55,723 nt of DNA, from assembly GCA_964343275.1 (NCBI GenBank), contig CAYFIY010000004.1, positions 1 through 55,723 of the forward strand, given 5' to 3'. Every line of letters starts with the position of its first letter. Position 1 is the first letter of the stretch. Shown in pieces: positions 33,596-37,604 of the stretch. The notes under the pieces were generated by a model. The model worked only from the letters and a program-made list of their open reading frames with translations, made no database searches and had not been told where the DNA came from. Made by a program: the position numbers and the translations under genes. The DNA comes from Candidatus Hadarchaeota archaeon. GTDB taxonomy: Archaea > Hadarchaeota > Hadarchaeia > Hadarchaeales > Hadarchaeaceae.

Positions 33596-34291
33596 ATGAG
33601 GGGAAAGAGACAGGGAAAGAGACAGTTTAAAAGAGAGTTCAGCAAAGAGTTGTGGCAACCTCGTACAATTATCGGTAAAGAGGTAAAAGAGGGGAAAATA
33701 ACTGGAATCTCACAAGTTCTGCGTAGCGGAAAGCCCTTTAAAGAGCCAGAGGTGGTTGACGCTCTCATGCCGAACATGGATGAGGAGATTCTCGATGTGG
33801 GGTTGGTCCAAAGGATGCATGAATCTGGCCGAAGGATTAAGTATAGGGTAGTATCTGTTGTCGGCAACCGCGACGGAATCGTGGGAGTGGGGCATGGAAG
33901 CGCCAGAGATATCGGTTCATCGATCAGAAAATCCACTACCATAGCTAAACTCAACTTAATAGAGGTTGCTAGGGGTTGTGGTAGTTGGGAATGCGGTTGC
34001 GGACGTAGCCACTCGATACCATTTGATGTCACCGGTAAAAGTGGGAGCGTCAAGGTTTCGATTAAACCGGCTCCTCGTGGGCTCGGTATAGCTTCGGCGA
34101 AGGTTCCAAGAACCATTCTAAAAATGGCAGGGGTCCAGGATGCTTGGACGAGATCGGAAGGGGAGACCCGCACCACGCTCAATTTTTCCTTGGCCGCACT
34201 GGATGCTCTAAAACAAACCACCAAGATGGCTTTGAGCGAGAAGTACAAGGAACACGTCACGATTGGGAAGGCGGATGAAACAAGTGGTTAA
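33596..34291 (+). CDS. rps5: 30S ribosomal protein S5
   Basis: W.PRT..G, VQRMHESGRR, RGCGSWEC, PAPRGLG. Confidence 0.97.
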   Translation: MRGKRQGKRQFKREFSKELWQPRTIIGKEVKEGKITGISQVLRSGKPFKEPEVVDALMPNMDEEILDVGLVQRMHESGRRIKYRVVSVVGNRDGIVGVGHGSARDIGSSIRKSTTIAKLNLIEVARGCGSWECGCGRSHSIPFDVTGKSGSVKVSIKPAPRGLGIASAKVPRTILKMAGVQDAWTRSEGETRTTLNFSLAALDALKQTTKMALSEKYKEHVTIGKADETSG

Positions 34292-34748
34292 ACTGGCCGT
34301 AATTAAACTTCGTAGCGGTATCAACGCTCGTACGGAGGTCAATGATACTCTGAATTTAATAGGCTTGACACGGGTTAACCACTGTGTTATACTTGATAAT
34401 GATCCATCCCGACTAGGTATGTTGAGGAAAATCAAGGATTTTGTAACTTGGGGAGAAATTAAGCCTGAAGTTCTAGAAATTTTAATAAAAAAGCGAGGAA
34501 GGCTATCGGGCGATAAACGAGTTACAAATGAGACCGTAAAATCAACGAAAAAATTTCAGACCATAGCCGAGCTGGCTGTCGCGGCAAGCGATGGTGGATA
34601 CGATCTCAAAGAGGCTGGAGTGAAGAAGGTTTTCAGGCTTCATCCCCCTAGGGGCGGACATAAGTCAACTAAACGTCCCGTCAAAGACCTGGGTGATTTG
34701 GGATATCGCGGGGAGCAAATAAACGAGCTACTCGATAGGATGATTTAG
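34275..34748 (+). CDS. rpl30: 50S ribosomal protein L30
   Basis: DTL..I.L.RVNHCV, GML.KIKD.VTWGE, FRLHPPRGG, LGYRG. Confidence 0.96.
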   Translation: MKQVVKLAVIKLRSGINARTEVNDTLNLIGLTRVNHCVILDNDPSRLGMLRKIKDFVTWGEIKPEVLEILIKKRGRLSGDKRVTNETVKSTKKFQTIAELAVAASDGGYDLKEAGVKKVFRLHPPRGGHKSTKRPVKDLGDLGYRGEQINELLDRMI

Positions 34749-34757
34749 GGTTATTCT

Positions 34758-35198
34758 ATGACAACACGTAAGCGGAGAAAAGTCCAGACCCAGCGCGGCA
34801 GACGTACCCATGGCAGCGGCTGTTCTAAACGAGGACGCGGTAGCGGAGAAAGAGGTGGAACAGGGATGAGTGGAGGGCATAAGCACAAATGGTCATATCT
34901 TATTAGGTATAGTCCAGACTACTTTGGAAATCATGGATTTATTCGTCCGACAGCAGTGCGGAGCAGTGTAAAAGCCATAAATATCGGGGAGCTAGACGAG
35001 CGCCTTGATGGGCTTCTGGACCTGGGTCTGGCCAGACGCGATGGAGAGAGATTCTTCATCGATGTGGCTAAGTTAGGTTTTGATAAAGTCCTTGGCAGCG
35101 GTCAAGTAAAACATCCATTGGACGTTAAGGCAAAGTCTTTCGTGGGCTCGGCTAAGCGCAAGATTGAAGAGGCTGGCGGCAAGGCTATCGCTAGGTGA
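34758..35198 (+). CDS. rpl15: 50S ribosomal protein L15
   Basis: RGRRTHG, RG.G.RGG.G, FG.HGF, KVLGSG, KIEEAGG. Confidence 0.96.
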   Translation: MTTRKRRKVQTQRGRRTHGSGCSKRGRGSGERGGTGMSGGHKHKWSYLIRYSPDYFGNHGFIRPTAVRSSVKAINIGELDERLDGLLDLGLARRDGERFFIDVAKLGFDKVLGSGQVKHPLDVKAKSFVGSAKRKIEEAGGKAIAR

Positions 35199-36670
35199 AA
35201 GCGATGGTGGAAGAGGGAAAGTCTCGCTCGATACTGTATGCGCTAGAACCAGCCGTTCGCAGGTTACCTGAAGTAGAAGTTCCCAAGAAACGGGTTCCCT
35301 TCAGGCAGAGGTTCATCTGGACGGGAGTGGCTCTAGTAATCTTTTTTGTAATGACTCAAGTTCCAATTTACGGTATAAGCCAGCGTGAGCCGTTCGTGGA
35401 TACGAATGGAAATGGTGTTTTTGATTTTGTTGACCTTGACGGGAATGGAGTTATGGACCTCGGCGAAGATGCCCTAGAAGAGTTCACTGATTTGAACGGC
35501 AATAGCATCTGGGACATGGGAGCACAGGATTTCTTCGGTCAGCTGAGATTTGTACTGGCTAGTCATTCAGGTAGTCTAATGGAGCTGGGTATAGGACCCA
35601 TCGTTACTGCCGGCATCGTGATGCAGCTTATGGTAGGAAGCAAGATCATAAAATTAGATCTGTCCAAGGGAGATGATCGTGCTCTGTTCACTGGGGTACA
35701 GAAAATTCTGGCTGTAGTTATGGGGGTGTTCTCAGGGGCTATGCTGGTGGTCGCTGGGACATATGGTCAGAGTTTGTCTTTATTTAGCTCAACAGGGGTT
35801 CTGATCGTATTTCAACTTACTCTGGGCGCGATCGTCGTGATTTACTTAGATGAGGTAGTTTCTAAATACGGCTTCGGCAGCGGTGTCAGTCTCTTTATAG
35901 CTGGAGGTGTTTCAATGACTGTAATCTGGCAGGCGTTAAATCCAACTAGCGGAGTCATCCCAAACCTAGCTGGCACAATAGTTGGTAGTGGGGATGTCAT
36001 TAGCTCTTTCTTCAGGCCAAATCTACCAAACATGGTGGGGTTGACAGCGACGATAATTATATTTTTGATAGTTGTCTATGCCGAAAGCATGAGAATTGAG
36101 ATTCCTCTCGCATACGCGAAATTTGGAGGAGTCAGAGGTAAGTACCCGATAAGGTTCCTGTACACATCGAACATTCCAGTGATTTTGGCCATGACCGTGT
36201 TTGCAAACATGAGGATTTTTTCGGCCGTCTTAAATGCTCCGTGGATAACCTACTACACTACTCCCCCCAGCGGACTGGCTCAAGTAGCTGCCGATCCTAT
36301 TCGCGCTGTCTTTTATATGGTCATTCTAACTGGTGTTGCAATGGGTTTTGCTTGGTTGTGGGTCAACATGACAGCAATGGGACCGAGGGACGTGGCAAAG
36401 AAGCTTGATTCATCTGGTATGCTAATCCCCGGGTTCCGTCGAGACGTGAGGGTCATGGAATGGGTTTTGAGTAGGTACATCATGACGGCAGCTTTGTTGG
36501 GAGGGGCGTTCGTGGGATTTCTCTCAGCAGGCGCAGACTTTTTAGGAGCTTTAGGCAGCGGGACGGGTATTTTACTAACCGTTGGTATCATGTACAACCT
36601 TTATCAAGAGATAGCTAAGGAGCAAGTAGCAGAAATGTTCCCAGCTATGAGGAGGTTGTTCGGTGAGTAG
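35195..36670 (+). CDS. secY: Preprotein translocase SecY with an inserted Dx[DN]GNG repeat module
   Basis: LMELGIGPIVTAG, GFGSGVSLFIA, YPIRFLYTSNIP, IPGFRRD, GSGTGILLTVGI. Start GTG 35195 or ATG 35204. Confidence 0.97.
   Translation: MKAMVEEGKSRSILYALEPAVRRLPEVEVPKKRVPFRQRFIWTGVALVIFFVMTQVPIYGISQREPFVDTNGNGVFDFVDLDGNGVMDLGEDALEEFTDLNGNSIWDMGAQDFFGQLRFVLASHSGSLMELGIGPIVTAGIVMQLMVGSKIIKLDLSKGDDRALFTGVQKILAVVMGVFSGAMLVVAGTYGQSLSLFSSTGVLIVFQLTLGAIVVIYLDEVVSKYGFGSGVSLFIAGGVSMTVIWQALNPTSGVIPNLAGTIVGSGDVISSFFRPNLPNMVGLTATIIIFLIVVYAESMRIEIPLAYAKFGGVRGKYPIRFLYTSNIPVILAMTVFANMRIFSAVLNAPWITYYTTPPSGLAQVAADPIRAVFYMVILTGVAMGFAWLWVNMTAMGPRDVAKKLDSSGMLIPGFRRDVRVMEWVLSRYIMTAALLGGAFVGFLSAGADFLGALGSGTGILLTVGIMYNLYQEIAKEQVAEMFPAMRRLFGE
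35387..35521 (+). repeat. Three in-frame F-x-D-x-[ND]-G-N-[GS]-h-x-D repeats inside secY
   Basis: EPFVDTNGNGVFD / FVDLDGNGVMDLGE / EEFTDLNGNSIWDMG between TM1 and the plug helix. Confidence 0.85.
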
Positions 36671-36779: not shown

Positions 36780-37604
36780 ATGAGAAAAGCGATCATGGTT
36801 GCGATAATGGTAATTTTTATATCCTCTTCTCTGTTGAGCGTAGGATTGGTAAAGGCCCAAGAACAGGACAAGGAAGAGGCTCTCTGGGGCGTAATCAACA
36901 AGTTGGATATAGCCGCTTCATCCCTTAGGAAAAACGACATACAGCCAGCTCTAGCTTCTATTAGAAAAGCCGCCGGGGAGTATGAATCCAATCTCAGTCC
37001 GAGTATTTCCAAGGTAGATAATTCCCTTGATGCCCAAATTAAAGAGGATTTCACCGCCGTTTCCCAAGGCGTACCCGAAGAAGATGTCTTTTCACTGAGG
37101 AGCAAGATAATCGAAGCCGCCGCACTGATAGATGTCCATATACCTCCGGTGTTTATCTATTCACTCTTCATAGTTTTTGCGATCGGGATCTTGGTGGCAT
37201 TTTTTACCAGCTATGTTTCAAAGCGAATGGTTAATTGGGAAATGGTCAAACAGAATAAGGCAAAGATGGATGAATATCGTAAGGAGCTCTTAGCCGCCCA
37301 GAGAAAGCGCGATATGAAGGCCGTTCACAAGATACAGGAAAGGCAACCAGAGATAAATCAACTTCAAAAAGAATACATGTCGCAGACTTTTAAGCCAACA
37401 ATATTCATAATGGTGCCCCTCTTTCTGTTGTGGATTTTAATGCTTCCGGCTTTTAGGGGGTGGGTCGTTGCTTGGATGCCATTTATTCGAATAGACATTC
37501 CATTCATGGGTCCATTGGTGACTTTCGGTGTGGGTTGGTGGTACGTCTTAACCAACCTAGGTTTCTCTCAAATATTCCGGAAGATAATGGGAGTTGGAGC
37601 TTAG
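36780..37604 (+). CDS. DUF106 / EMC3-TMCO1 (Oxa1 superfamily) insertase with extra signal peptide and extracellular domain
   Basis: C-terminal TM, cytoplasmic coiled coil, KPTIFIMVP and GWWY...FSQIFRKIMG, in the conserved position before rpl34e. About 120-aa N-terminal extension beginning with a VKA|Q signal-peptide pattern. Confidence 0.88.
   Translation: MRKAIMVAIMVIFISSSLLSVGLVKAQEQDKEEALWGVINKLDIAASSLRKNDIQPALASIRKAAGEYESNLSPSISKVDNSLDAQIKEDFTAVSQGVPEEDVFSLRSKIIEAAALIDVHIPPVFIYSLFIVFAIGILVAFFTSYVSKRMVNWEMVKQNKAKMDEYRKELLAAQRKRDMKAVHKIQERQPEINQLQKEYMSQTFKPTIFIMVPLFLLWILMLPAFRGWVVAWMPFIRIDIPFMGPLVTFGVGWWYVLTNLGFSQIFRKIMGVGA

What the first reader, a model, noticed from the sequence alone, without database searches (positions are those of the whole stretch)
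35387..35521. SecY carries a triple Dx[DN]GNG calcium-binding-type module next to its plug
Seen: about 45 extra, very acidic residues (EPFVDTNGNGVFD-FVDLDGNGVMDLGE-DALEEFTDLNGNSIWDMG) between TM1 (…VPIYGI) and the plug/TM2 region (DFFGQLRFVLAS…GSLMELGIGP). The three copies keep the protein motif while codons have diverged, consistent with selection. Established: Dx[DN]x[DN]G loops bind Ca2+ in EF-hands, dockerins and surface-protein repeats; this SecY loop is extracytoplasmic, normally short, and connected to the plug that seals the channel. Inference: a Ca2+-sensing or Ca2+-stabilised translocon, or a docking site for a partner. I know of no described SecY with such a module.
Basis: partly seen in the sequence, partly recalled or inferred. 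Interest (0 to 1): 0.85.

Follow-up and report, generated by a model that had tools for sequence, protein, structure and literature searches.

The report
Calcium-loop module inserted beside SecY plug
A group of uncultured archaea (Hadarchaeota) carries, in the outward-facing loop just before the plug of its protein-export channel SecY, a conserved pair or trio of calcium-binding-type loops that has not been described for this channel and that offers a natural experiment on how the plug works.

Summary
The ORF at 35195-36670 (+) is an archaeal SecY. Residues 65-110 are a 46-residue insertion (12 acidic, 0 basic) between TM1 and the plug helix, made of three DxNGNGxxD units.

- **Real:** it is present in 12 of 66 Hadarchaeota species genomes and in a contig from a second sample.
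- **Conserved:** the putative ligand positions are nearly invariant, and non-synonymous divergence is as low as in the rest of SecY while synonymous sites are saturated.
- **Patchy:** relatives have 0, 2 or 3 units, never 1. At least 7 gains or losses are needed, and monophyly of the carriers is rejected.
- **Origin of the unit:** the EPFxDxNGNGxWDxG unit matches an unnamed tandem repeat of large bacterial proteins, some with surface-type domains, and resembles EF-hand / Dx[DN]xDG loops.
- **Restricted:** within the phylum it was found strongly only in SecY and, in one genome, in the ectodomain of the neighbouring YidC-like EMC3/DUF106 protein.

The best reading is a calcium-stabilised, non-essential knob on the outer face at the base of the plug. 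Calcium binding and any gating role are inferred, not shown. A calcium-sensor role is unsupported. I rate it a new variant of a known kind, interest about 0.6.

The parts
34263..34748 (+). ribosomal protein uL30 gene (operon context)
   Evidence: Pfam Ribosomal_L30 3.4e-12
34758..35198 (+). ribosomal protein uL15 gene; its stop overlaps the GTG start of secY
   Evidence: Pfam Ribosomal_L27A 1.5e-13; ORF list
35195..36670 (+). secY, 491 aa
   Evidence: Pfam SecY 2.8e-68; PDB SecY/Sec61 matches down to 3.1e-114; AF2 model pLDDT 83.6, Foldseek TM-score up to 0.84 normalised by target length (1rh5_A; 1rhz_A 0.82) to solved SecY/Sec61
35300..35359 (+). TM1 (residues 36-55)
   Evidence: helix 36-55 in the AF2 model; aligns to TM1 of solved SecY
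35387..35524 (+). 46-residue insertion (residues 65-110), 12 acidic and 0 basic
   Evidence: unaligned against 3mp7_A and 1rhz_A; absent from 99 of 120 homologues; composition
35399..35434 (+). loop 1, DTNGNGVFDFVD (residues 69-80); its position 12 is position 1 of loop 2
   Evidence: D1 27/27, N3 27/27, N5 27/27, G6 26/27, D9 27/27, acidic position 12 in 25/27 distinct inserts
35432..35467 (+). loop 2 (middle unit), DLDGNGVMDLGE (residues 80-91); present only in 3-unit forms
   Evidence: absent as a 14-15-residue block from 2-unit forms; matches EF-hand loops of photoproteins; D1 14/14, E12 14/14, G6 11/14, D9 11/14
35489..35515 (+). loop 3, DLNGNSIWD (residues 99-107); 9-residue type with no acidic position 12
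   Evidence: D1 27/27, N3 27/27, N/D5 27/27, G6 26/27 (this window has S), W8 25/27, D9 26/27
35525..35599 (+). plug region up to the GIGP motif (residues 111-135); plug helix 117-121
   Evidence: aligns to chain 56 onward of 3mp7_A and 60 onward of 1rhz_A; helix 117-121 in the model
36780..37604 (+). EMC3/TMCO1 (DUF106) YidC-like membrane protein, without the module here; its orthologue in genome G052 carries a 2-unit module in the N-terminal ectodomain
   Evidence: Pfam PF01956 4e-22; 31% identity to L060:2262-3170, where about 30 extra residues hold the module

Best explanation
This is a genuine, selected domain insertion in SecY of a clade of Hadarchaeota (genus Candidatus Hadarchaeum and some relatives). 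Two or three tandem 11-19-residue units (EPFxDxNGNGx[WFY]DxG) sit in the extracytoplasmic loop between TM1 and the plug helix. The units are of the EF-hand-loop / Dx[DN]xDG kind and are related to an unnamed tandem repeat of large bacterial proteins, some with surface-type domains. Most likely the acidic loop crosses the membrane unfolded during SecY biogenesis. Outside the cell it then binds one Ca2+ per loop and folds into a compact, mostly coil knob, with paired loops as the minimal stable unit. The knob sits on the rim of the outer funnel, tethered 5 residues after TM1 and about 7 residues before the plug helix. Calcium would then be a permanent structural cofactor rather than a signal. 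The knob would stiffen or shield the base of the plug, favouring the closed, sealed state. It modulates channel function but is not essential for it. Shown: the insertion, its place, its conservation, its selection, its distribution and its sequence kinship. Inferred: Ca2+ binding, the fold, and the effect on the plug.
For: Position: 46 residues face one residue of solved SecY, and the plug blocks the periplasmic side of the channel (PMC2585858, abstract in the listing, passages). Reality: 12 of 66 phylum genomes, 9 of the best 80 loci in 185,579 species genomes, and the second-sample contig. Selection: over 28 genome pairs of the genus, the insert has mean pN 0.093 at pS 0.85, against 0.085 at 0.71 for the rest of SecY. 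L004 and L005 have identical insert proteins at pS 0.82. Ligand positions 1, 3, 5, 6 and 9 are kept in 26-27 of 27 distinct inserts for the first and last units. There are 0 one-unit forms among the 119 of 120 homologues that cover the loop, as expected if loops must pair. Motif: the insert matches EF-hand loops of obelin, mitrocomin and clytin at whole-sequence E 1.3e-4 to 9e-4. D1, N3, N5, backbone 7, D9 and D/E12 fit the EF-hand loop rules quoted in PMC3123361, which also reports that grafting such a loop suffices to create a Ca2+ site and that a Ca2+-binding insertion in an archaeal subtilisin is needed for folding. Kinship: profile hits to multi-repeat proteins reach E 4.5e-32, and 86 of the best 150 are such proteins with a median of 13 motifs. 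One carries SdrD_B domains, whose EF-hand loops bind Ca2+ (PMC3775735). Fold: the AF2 model has pLDDT 75-87 over residues 61-110, with coil and isolated bridges only. External Ca2+ is about 1 mM (PMC7276530), and the holding runs are labelled marine or seawater metagenome. That is well above the micromolar affinities I recall as typical for such loops (recalled, no call).
Against: There is no direct evidence of Ca2+ binding. Position 5 is Asn in every first unit, whereas the strict Dx[DN]xDG motif has Asp. The last unit has no acidic position 12, and this window has S at its position 6. Pfam EF-hand_1 scores only 11.6 bits against a cut-off of 25.4, and the individual stretches of the PDB matches are not significant on their own. 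No flanking helices are predicted, so it is not an EF-hand. The AF2 run had no ions and I could not inspect coordinates, so ligand geometry and contact with the plug are unverified. The module is dispensable: at least 7 gains or losses among 62 SecY sequences, and close relatives at 70% identity lack it. The middle unit decays in one subclade (D9 to Q in 3 of 14, G6 lost in 3 of 14). The same module in the N-terminal ectodomain of the EMC3/DUF106 protein of G052 argues that attachment to the plug itself may not be what matters.
Confidence: 0.55

Rival explanations
1. Calcium sensor or gate: Ca2+ occupancy changes with the environment and switches plug mobility, coupling export or ion leak to external Ca2+.
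For: EF-hand-like loops directly adjoin the plug helix. The loops differ in form (12-residue loops with acidic position 12 and a 9-residue loop without), which could give graded affinities. Eukaryotic translocons are linked to Ca2+ through Sec62 and TRAP-alpha (PMC7276530).
Against: The module faces the outside, where Ca2+ is about 1 mM, and the holding runs are labelled marine or seawater. Loops with the micromolar affinity I recall as typical would stay saturated. Close relatives do without it. The same module sits on another protein away from any plug. No regulatory partner was identified.
Confidence: 0.1
2. Docking platform: the Ca2+-folded knob is a binding site on the outer face of the translocon for a partner such as an S-layer or cell-surface protein, signal peptidase, oligosaccharyltransferase, the ectodomain of the YidC-like insertase, or emerging polypeptides.
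For: Within 66 genomes of the phylum the module was found strongly only on two proteins of the export/insertion machinery, both times on the outer side (outer-side topology of the DUF106 N-domain is inferred from its signal-peptide-like start). The non-ligand positions (E-P-F before the loop, W8, G11) are also conserved, as a surface or packing role would need. Ca2+-dependent dockerins are a known precedent (recalled).
Against: No Pfam dockerin hit at E up to 10. No cohesin in the 90%-complete genome. SecE shows no co-varying feature. No partner gene was identified. The DUF106 case is a single genome out of 120 homologues.
Confidence: 0.12
3. Tolerated passenger: a piece of a bacterial repeat gene landed in a permissive loop. 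Selection only keeps it foldable and harmless, so it gives the channel no function.
For: The distribution is patchy with at least 7 changes and rejected monophyly. The plug region tolerates deletions (PMC8675477 and PMC2585858). One subclade lets the middle unit decay.
Against: Constraint equals that of the rest of SecY across a genus whose synonymous sites are saturated. It is kept in 8 of 8 species of the genus. The same kind of module appears in lineage-specific flank contexts (P0031 against P0033 and P0038; P0015 against P0021) and in a second translocation protein, but was found in no other gene of 66 genomes at E below 0.03. A random passenger would not be expected to show that target bias.
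Confidence: 0.18
4. Artefact: a mis-assembly or chimera in a metagenome bin.
For: The window comes from a 108-contig, 90%-complete genome.
Against: The insert is in frame and is present in 12 genomes, 20 database clusters and 9 named GenBank records including Ca. Hadarchaeum yellowstonense YNP_45. An independent run's contig covers it with 0 differences and no alternative joint.
Confidence: 0.01

Closest known systems
Archaeal SecY / eukaryotic Sec61-alpha (solved: 1rhz M. jannaschii, 3mp7; I recall 3mp7 as Pyrococcus furiosus)
   Same: Full-length homologue: 3.1e-114 to 3mp7_A and Foldseek TM-score up to 0.84 normalised by target length. It has the same operon place after uL30 and uL15, and the plug and GIGP motifs are intact.
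   Different: The TM1-to-plug loop is 46 residues longer. None of the 24 matched PDB sequences, 99 of 120 close homologues or 64 SecY-like cluster representatives has this.
Dx[DN]xDG / EF-hand-like calcium-binding loops (Rigden et al. 2011, PMC3123361), including the Ca2+-binding insertion of Thermococcus kodakaraensis subtilisin
   Same: A D-x-N-x-N-G-x-x-D core with an acidic position 12 in two of the three loops. It is an insertion into an existing fold of an archaeal extracytoplasmic segment, and there is no need for flanking helices.
   Different: Position 5 is Asn, not Asp. The loops are tandem and partly overlapping (D80 is shared). The host is a membrane channel. Binding is untested.
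Unnamed bacterial tandem repeat EPFTDxNGNGxWDxx (for example P0124 of 1106 aa, P0137, P0121 with Big_1/invasin domains, P0122/P0123 with a PilX_N-like start) and the related loop of SdrD_B/GEVED domains
   Same: The same 15-16-residue unit including non-ligand positions. Profile E-values reach 4.5e-32. Where these proteins have any Pfam domain, it is a surface-type one (Big_1, invasin, SdrD_B).
   Different: Those proteins carry a median of 13 and up to 39 motifs in soluble or surface proteins, and the Atlas look-alike clusters are bacterial. Here only 2-3 units sit inside an archaeal membrane protein. No Pfam or NCBIfam model covers the repeat.
Calcium-linked accessories of the eukaryotic translocon (TRAP-alpha lumenal domain, Sec62 EF-hand, BiP sealing)
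   Same: A Ca2+-binding or sealing element on or near the trans side of the Sec61/SecY channel (PMC7276530; PMC2585858).
   Different: Those are separate proteins with no sequence relation. This is an analogy only; here the element is built into the channel subunit.
Dockerin (type I) duplicated Ca2+-binding segments
   Same: Paired Ca2+ loops on an extracellular module used for docking (recalled).
   Different: There is no Pfam hit, no helices after the loops, the units are 11-19 rather than about 22 residues, and there is no cohesin in the genome.

Membership tests
SecY/Sec61-alpha (PF00344) | Profile match over the curated cut-off and the 10-helix fold | tested here: met
   231 bits against a cut-off of 32.2. 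The AF2 model has TM-score (normalised by target length) 0.82 to 1rhz_A and 0.84 to 1rh5_A.
SecY/Sec61-alpha (PF00344) | Plug segment directly after TM1 (Plug_translocon PF10559, one continuous 35-position match) | tested here: inconclusive
   32 bits, over the cut-off of 22.1, but only profile positions 1-16 match (residues 48-69). The rest of the plug lies 46 residues further on.
EF-hand (PF00036 and relatives) | Profile match over the cut-off | tested here: not met
   EF-hand_1 E 0.23, 11.6 bits against 25.4. EF-hand_6 and EF-hand_5 are weaker.
EF-hand (PF00036 and relatives) | Helix-loop-helix around a 12-residue loop | tested here: not met
   DSSP of the model shows no helix between residues 56 and 116.
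EF-hand (PF00036 and relatives) | Loop ligands at positions 1, 3, 5, 9 and 12, with Gly at 6 | tested here: met
   Loops 1 and 2 read D-x-[ND]-x-N-G-x-x-D-x-x-[DE]. Loop 3 lacks position 12. The rules are as quoted in PMC3123361.
Dx[DN]xDG calcium-binding loop class | Linear motif D-x-[DN]-x-D-G | tested here: inconclusive
   D1, N/D3 and G6 are kept, but position 5 is N in 27 of 27 first units and 26 of 27 last units. Asn at position 5 is allowed 'less frequently' in EF-hands.
Dx[DN]xDG calcium-binding loop class | Demonstrated Ca2+ coordination | not testable with these tools
   There is no ion-aware model with accessible coordinates. ITC, Tb3+ luminescence or a solved structure is needed.
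Dockerin | Dockerin_1 profile match and a cohesin partner | tested here: not met
   No hit at E up to 10. Cohesin PF00963 is absent from G000, which is 90% complete.
Thrombospondin type 3, FG-GAP/VCBS and RTX repeats | Pfam profile match | tested here: not met
   None is listed among the 5 families with E up to 10 for the insert. The resemblance in overlapping loops is recalled, not tested.
Bacterial EPFTDxNGNGxWD tandem repeat (unnamed) | Significant profile similarity including non-ligand positions | tested here: met
   E 1.2e-4 for P0121 with the insert alone against 5.8 billion proteins. E reaches 4.5e-32 with profile A3. The units can be compared. Biased composition may inflate these scores.

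The most novel reading that the evidence does not exclude
The paired DxNGNGxxD loops are a portable, calcium-folded 'exit-face' module that Hadarchaeota have recruited more than once and, as far as found, only into their protein-export machinery. It sits in the TM1-plug loop of SecY in at least two lineage-specific flank contexts, and in the ectodomain of the YidC-like EMC3/DUF106 insertase. On this reading it performs a specific trans-side job: a Ca2+-dependent latch or cap that seals the resting channel, or a binding platform for emerging chains. That would make it a built-in prokaryotic counterpart of lumenal translocon accessories such as TRAP-alpha or BiP, and the first metal-dependent element in a SecY channel.
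Probability: 0.15. Interest if true: 0.8.

Novelty: new variant of a known kind. Interest (0 to 1): 0.6.

Why it matters
SecY/Sec61 is one of the most conserved membrane proteins, and its plug region is short in every solved structure. Here a folded, probably metal-bound module sits directly at the hinge of the plug and is under selection. Natural 0-, 2- and 3-unit versions exist at 70-80% identity, which gives ready-made matched variants for testing how plug mobility, sealing and the outer funnel affect ion leak and translocation.

It is also a clean case of a short calcium-loop module moving between unrelated protein contexts. Rigden and co-workers raised that mechanism as a hypothesis and then set it aside in favour of convergence. 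If the module proves to act at the exit face, it would be a prokaryotic parallel to the calcium-linked lumenal accessories of the eukaryotic translocon.

Tried and rejected
**Complex prediction.** I folded SecY with the neighbouring EMC3/DUF106 protein and three Ca2+. The result was no verdict (score 0.00, controls not run). It counts neither for nor against binding.

**Fold of a bacterial repeat protein, P0137.** Mean pLDDT was 54.7, too poor for a fold search, so the structural class of the repeat remains unknown. Both structure-prediction jobs are now used.

**ESM Atlas.** The insert gave no usable hit. P0137 gave only 'hypothetical protein' clusters and Big_1/invasin clusters of bacteria.

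**Insert alone against the 5.8-billion-protein set.** This found only 2 of the 20 insert-bearing SecY clusters, so its sensitivity was low. I relied on the full-length search instead.

**SecE as a co-varying partner.** All are 55-58 residues from the first Met, with no systematic difference.

**Cohesin in the genome.** None found.

**Recent DNA transfer between SecY modules and the G052 DUF106 module.** Third-position identity is 0.36-0.46, which gives no sign of a recent copy.

**Recombination of a large N-terminal block.** Trees of the N-terminal and C-terminal parts both need 8 presence/absence changes, so block exchange does not explain the patchiness.

**RNA evidence.** No RNA holder was listed, so expression was not addressed.

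**Short 34-base matches in contigs of X1, X4 and X5.** These have unrelated flanks, come from other organisms, and are not evidence for this gene.

(regex found nothing; script error) were corrected. In one search the regex missed the last unit of P0002 and the middle unit of P0012. As a result, one 'last unit' row is really P0002's middle unit, and the middle-unit table has 14 rows rather than 16.

**Not consulted.** I did not ask for supplementary files of papers. Alignments in the supplements of Hadesarchaea genome papers could mention the insert.

**Literature.** For PMC3123361, PMC7276530, PMC3775735, PMC8675477 and PMC2585858 I saw only passages returned by 'find', plus the abstract starts in the listings. 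All other titles were seen in search listings only. The statement that no SecY with such a module is in print rests on searches of the held library only.
Full report
**1. What is there**

The window holds the end of an archaeal ribosomal-protein operon. The order is uL30 (34263-34748), uL15 (34758-35198), then a 491-codon ORF at 35195-36670, then an EMC3/TMCO1 (DUF106) membrane protein at 36780-37604.

The 491-aa protein is SecY. Pfam SecY scores 2.8e-68, solved SecY/Sec61 chains match down to 3.1e-114, and the AlphaFold2 model has mean pLDDT 83.6. The model superposes on 1rhz_A, 1rh5_A and Sec61 structures with TM-scores up to 0.84 when normalised by target length.

Against 3mp7_A the alignment breaks cleanly. 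Query 10-64 pairs with chain 3-54 and query 111-490 with chain 56-467. Residues 65-110 are therefore an insertion between the end of TM1 (helix 36-55 in the model) and the plug helix (117-121). The Pfam plug model is cut at position 16 of 35 for the same reason. The plug closes the periplasmic side of the channel (PMC2585858, abstract start and passages), so the insert is extracytoplasmic.

The insert has 46 residues, 12 acidic and none basic. It contains three units, FVDTNGNGVFD, FVDLDGNGVMD and FTDLNGNSIWD. Their DNA is only 19-20 of 33 bases identical.

**2. It is not chance and not an artefact**

In all 7047 six-frame ORFs of the 1.40-Mb genome, the pattern D.[DN].[DN]G..D occurs only in SecY, twice. 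Looser patterns occur at the rate of shuffled sequence but never more than once per ORF elsewhere.

The insert is found in the following places:
- 20 of the 120 best database homologues: 12 with three units and 8 with two. Another 99 have none and one is a fragment lacking the region.
- 12 of 66 species genomes of the phylum: genus g1 8/8, g9 3/6, g4 1/1. A further 46 genomes match the flanks only and 8 have no match.
- 9 of the best 80 loci from 185,579 species genomes. Eight are titled Hadarchaeum, Hadesarchaea or Hadarchaeota, including Ca. Hadarchaeum yellowstonense YNP_45, and one is titled 'Methanobacteriota archaeon'. The 71 others have the short loop. They include other Hadarchaeota, Bathyarchaeia, Asgard, Thaumarchaeota and Methanocella.

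A contig of run X3, from another sample than the probable source X1, covers 35250-35511 without a difference. No run shows a joint that skips the insert.

**3. Selection**

Among the eight genomes of the genus, synonymous sites are saturated (mean pS 0.85 in the insert, 0.71 elsewhere). Non-synonymous divergence of the insert (0.093) equals that of the rest of SecY (0.085). Unsaturated pairs give dN/dS of 0.01-0.08. One pair has identical insert proteins at pS 0.82.

Over 27 distinct inserts, the first unit keeps D1, N3, N5 and D9 in 27/27, G6 in 26/27, and an acidic position 12 in 25/27. The last unit keeps D1 and N3 in 27/27, N/D5 in 27/27, and G6 and D9 in 26/27, but has no acidic position 12. 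The middle unit (14 scored) keeps D1, N/D3, N/D5 and E12 in 14/14, but G6 and D9 in only 11/14 (with the two regex misses noted under Tried and rejected).

Non-ligand positions are conserved too: the E-P-F before the loop, the aromatic residue at position 8, and G at position 11. The refutation condition 'Asp/Asn positions not conserved in relatives' is therefore not met.

**4. What kind of module it is**

No Pfam or NCBIfam family covers the insert. The best hits are GEVED and EF-hand_1 at E 0.23, far below their cut-offs.

Against PDB sequences the insert matches the EF-hand loops of obelin, mitrocomin and clytin at whole-sequence E 1.3e-4 to 9e-4, through several individually weak stretches. 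Loops 1 and 2 obey the EF-hand loop rule: ligands at positions 1, 3, 5, 9 and 12, with Gly at 6. Asn is allowed at position 3 and, less often, at position 5 (PMC3123361, passages). No flanking helices are predicted. The module is therefore EF-hand-loop-like, of the Dx[DN]xDG class in the broad sense, and not an EF-hand.

The whole unit, EPFxDxNGNGxWDxG, recurs in tandem in large proteins. With the insert alone, P0121 (Big_1/invasin domains) scores E 1.2e-4. With a profile of TM1 + insert + plug, searched against 1.84 billion cluster representatives, 86 of the best 150 are such repeat proteins. They carry a median of 13 and up to 39 motifs, and E-values reach 4.5e-32. The other 64 are SecY-like proteins that match the flanks only, and none of them has a motif.

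Five of the repeat proteins have no Pfam family at all. One carries SdrD_B domains and one carries SpaA/GEVED. The look-alike Atlas clusters are bacterial 'hypothetical proteins', some with Big_1/invasin domains. Sdr B repeats contain a functional Ca2+-binding EF-hand loop that compacts the protein (PMC3775735, passage).

So the SecY insert is a 2-3-unit piece of a widespread, unnamed repeat found mostly in large bacterial proteins, some with surface-type domains. Because the similarity extends beyond the metal ligands, I favour common origin (acquisition) over convergence. That is an inference, and biased composition may flatter the E-values.

**5. History**

The 3-unit form equals the 2-unit form plus a 14-15-residue middle unit. 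No 1-unit form exists among the 119 of 120 homologues that cover the loop.

On a SecY tree built without the insert columns (62 rows), presence/absence needs 7 changes and the three states need 9. Holding the 20 carriers together costs 364.6 log-likelihood units (AU p 2.6e-38). Trees of the N-terminal and C-terminal parts each need 8 changes, so exchange of a large block is not the explanation.

Two observations suggest more than one insertion, or very precise exchange:
- Non-carriers nested among carriers keep the loop sequence typical of other non-carriers (for example P0021 and P0034, GIP.G..V.EFFGQ).
- The lone carrier P0031 keeps its own lineage's flanks (GR.PFFGQ, as in P0033 and P0038) around a divergent module (NLNG / NMNG).

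The root is unknown, so gains and losses cannot be told apart. Either way the module is dispensable.

**6. A second host protein**

A profile of the 2-unit module, searched in all six frames of the 66 genomes, hits strongly in 13 genomes. Twelve hits are in SecY. One is in the EMC3/DUF106 (YidC/Oxa1-like) protein of genome G052. That genome's own SecY lacks the insert, and the DUF106 gene lies two genes downstream of secY. Only three weak hits (E 0.03-0.05) lie elsewhere.

The G052 protein is the orthologue of the window's ORF 36780-37604 (31% identity, PF01956 in both). It has about 30 extra residues, GEPFTDSNGNGRYDEGEPFDDLNGNGVWD, in the N-terminal domain. That domain follows a signal-peptide-like start and precedes TM1, so I infer it is extracytoplasmic.

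It is the only one of 120 DUF106 homologues with the module, and it comes from a single contig of a 56%-complete genome. Its codons show no recent copying from any sampled SecY module.

One case is thin. Even so, within this phylum the module was found only on the outer face of two proteins of the export/insertion machinery.

**7. Mechanism**

*Shown.* A conserved, selected, acidic, coil-rich insertion of paired or tripled EF-hand-type loops lies on the outer side, 5 residues after TM1 and 7 before the plug helix. AlphaFold2 models it with pLDDT 75-87, with no helix or strand but isolated bridges at residues 67, 78, 93 and 97.

*Inferred.* Each loop binds one Ca2+. The acidic segment stays unfolded until it has crossed the membrane and then folds outside. 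Two loops are the minimal stable unit, as with paired EF-hands, which would explain the absence of 1-unit forms. Because the two ends of an inserted domain must lie together, the module forms a knob on the rim of the outer funnel and moves with, or restrains, the base of the plug.

[quoted passage not shown] A rigid knob at the plug's hinge would therefore most plausibly bias the channel towards the closed state or shield the funnel.

External Ca2+ is about 1 mM (PMC7276530), and the holding runs are labelled marine or seawater metagenome. I recall typical EF-hand-type loop affinities as micromolar (no call). I therefore expect permanent occupancy, meaning a structural rather than a sensing role. 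I give this reading 0.55.

*Rivals.*
- A tolerated passenger kept merely foldable: 0.18.
- A docking platform: 0.12.
- A Ca2+ sensor or gate: 0.10.
- An artefact: 0.01.

The DUF106 case pulls weight from 'plug latch' towards 'something done at the exit face'. It is the basis of the bolder reading in the section on the most novel reading.

**8. Comparison with what is known, and novelty**

Membership in the SecY family is met. Membership in the EF-hand, dockerin, TSP3, FG-GAP and RTX families is not met by their profiles. The Dx[DN]xDG class is met only in its relaxed form.

A Ca2+-binding insertion needed for folding is known in an archaeal subtilisin. Ca2+-linked accessories are known for the eukaryotic translocon. 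I found no report of a SecY or Sec61 with a built-in module of this kind in five searches of the held library, and none among SecY-like cluster representatives. Clustering at 50% identity hides members, however, as it hides this very clade.

I rate it a new variant of a known kind, with interest about 0.6. It is a real and unexpected feature of a very conserved channel, with natural matched variants for experiments. It is confined to uncultured lineages, it is dispensable, and its function remains inferred.

**9. Limits**

I could not read model coordinates. No ion-aware fold was available. The complex job gave no verdict. Supplements of papers were not consulted. No RNA run was listed.

Noticed in passing
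L060:2262-3170 (-) = G052:C6, two genes downstream of its secY: The EMC3/DUF106 (YidC-like) protein of a related genus carries a 2-unit copy of the same module in its N-terminal ectodomain, while that genome's SecY lacks it. It is the only one of 120 homologues to do so, and it comes from a single contig of a 56%-complete genome.
   Followed up: yes
window 36780-37604 (+): The Hadarchaeota EMC3/DUF106 proteins have a signal-peptide-like start and an N-terminal domain of about 100 residues before TM1. It is conserved in length across 48 aligned homologues. As far as I recall, the M. jannaschii homologue lacks such a domain. Its role is unknown.
   Followed up: partly
window 35385-35432: Contigs of runs X1, X4 and X5 with unrelated flanks match 34 bases here with 3-4 differences. 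Other organisms in marine or seawater metagenomes therefore encode near-identical EPFVDTNGNG-type units.
   Followed up: no
window 35195-35198: The GTG start of secY overlaps the stop of the uL15 gene by 4 bases. The database copy of the protein (P0001, 488 aa) starts at the Met three codons later, so the true start is unsettled.
   Followed up: no
G042 contigs C17 and C19: One 75%-complete genome of genus g9 has SecY N-terminal matches on two contigs, which suggests two strains or contamination in the bin.
   Followed up: no
P0231: A 481-aa Sec61-like cluster representative contains two copies of the plug region (two Plug_translocon stretches) separated by low-complexity sequence. It looks like a mis-predicted or rearranged eukaryotic gene.
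   Followed up: no
L127: A record titled Candidatus Hadarchaeum sp. (isolate DR5_53_9) has the short loop without the insert, so the NCBI genus label does not coincide with the 8/8 insert-bearing GTDB genus g1.
   Followed up: no
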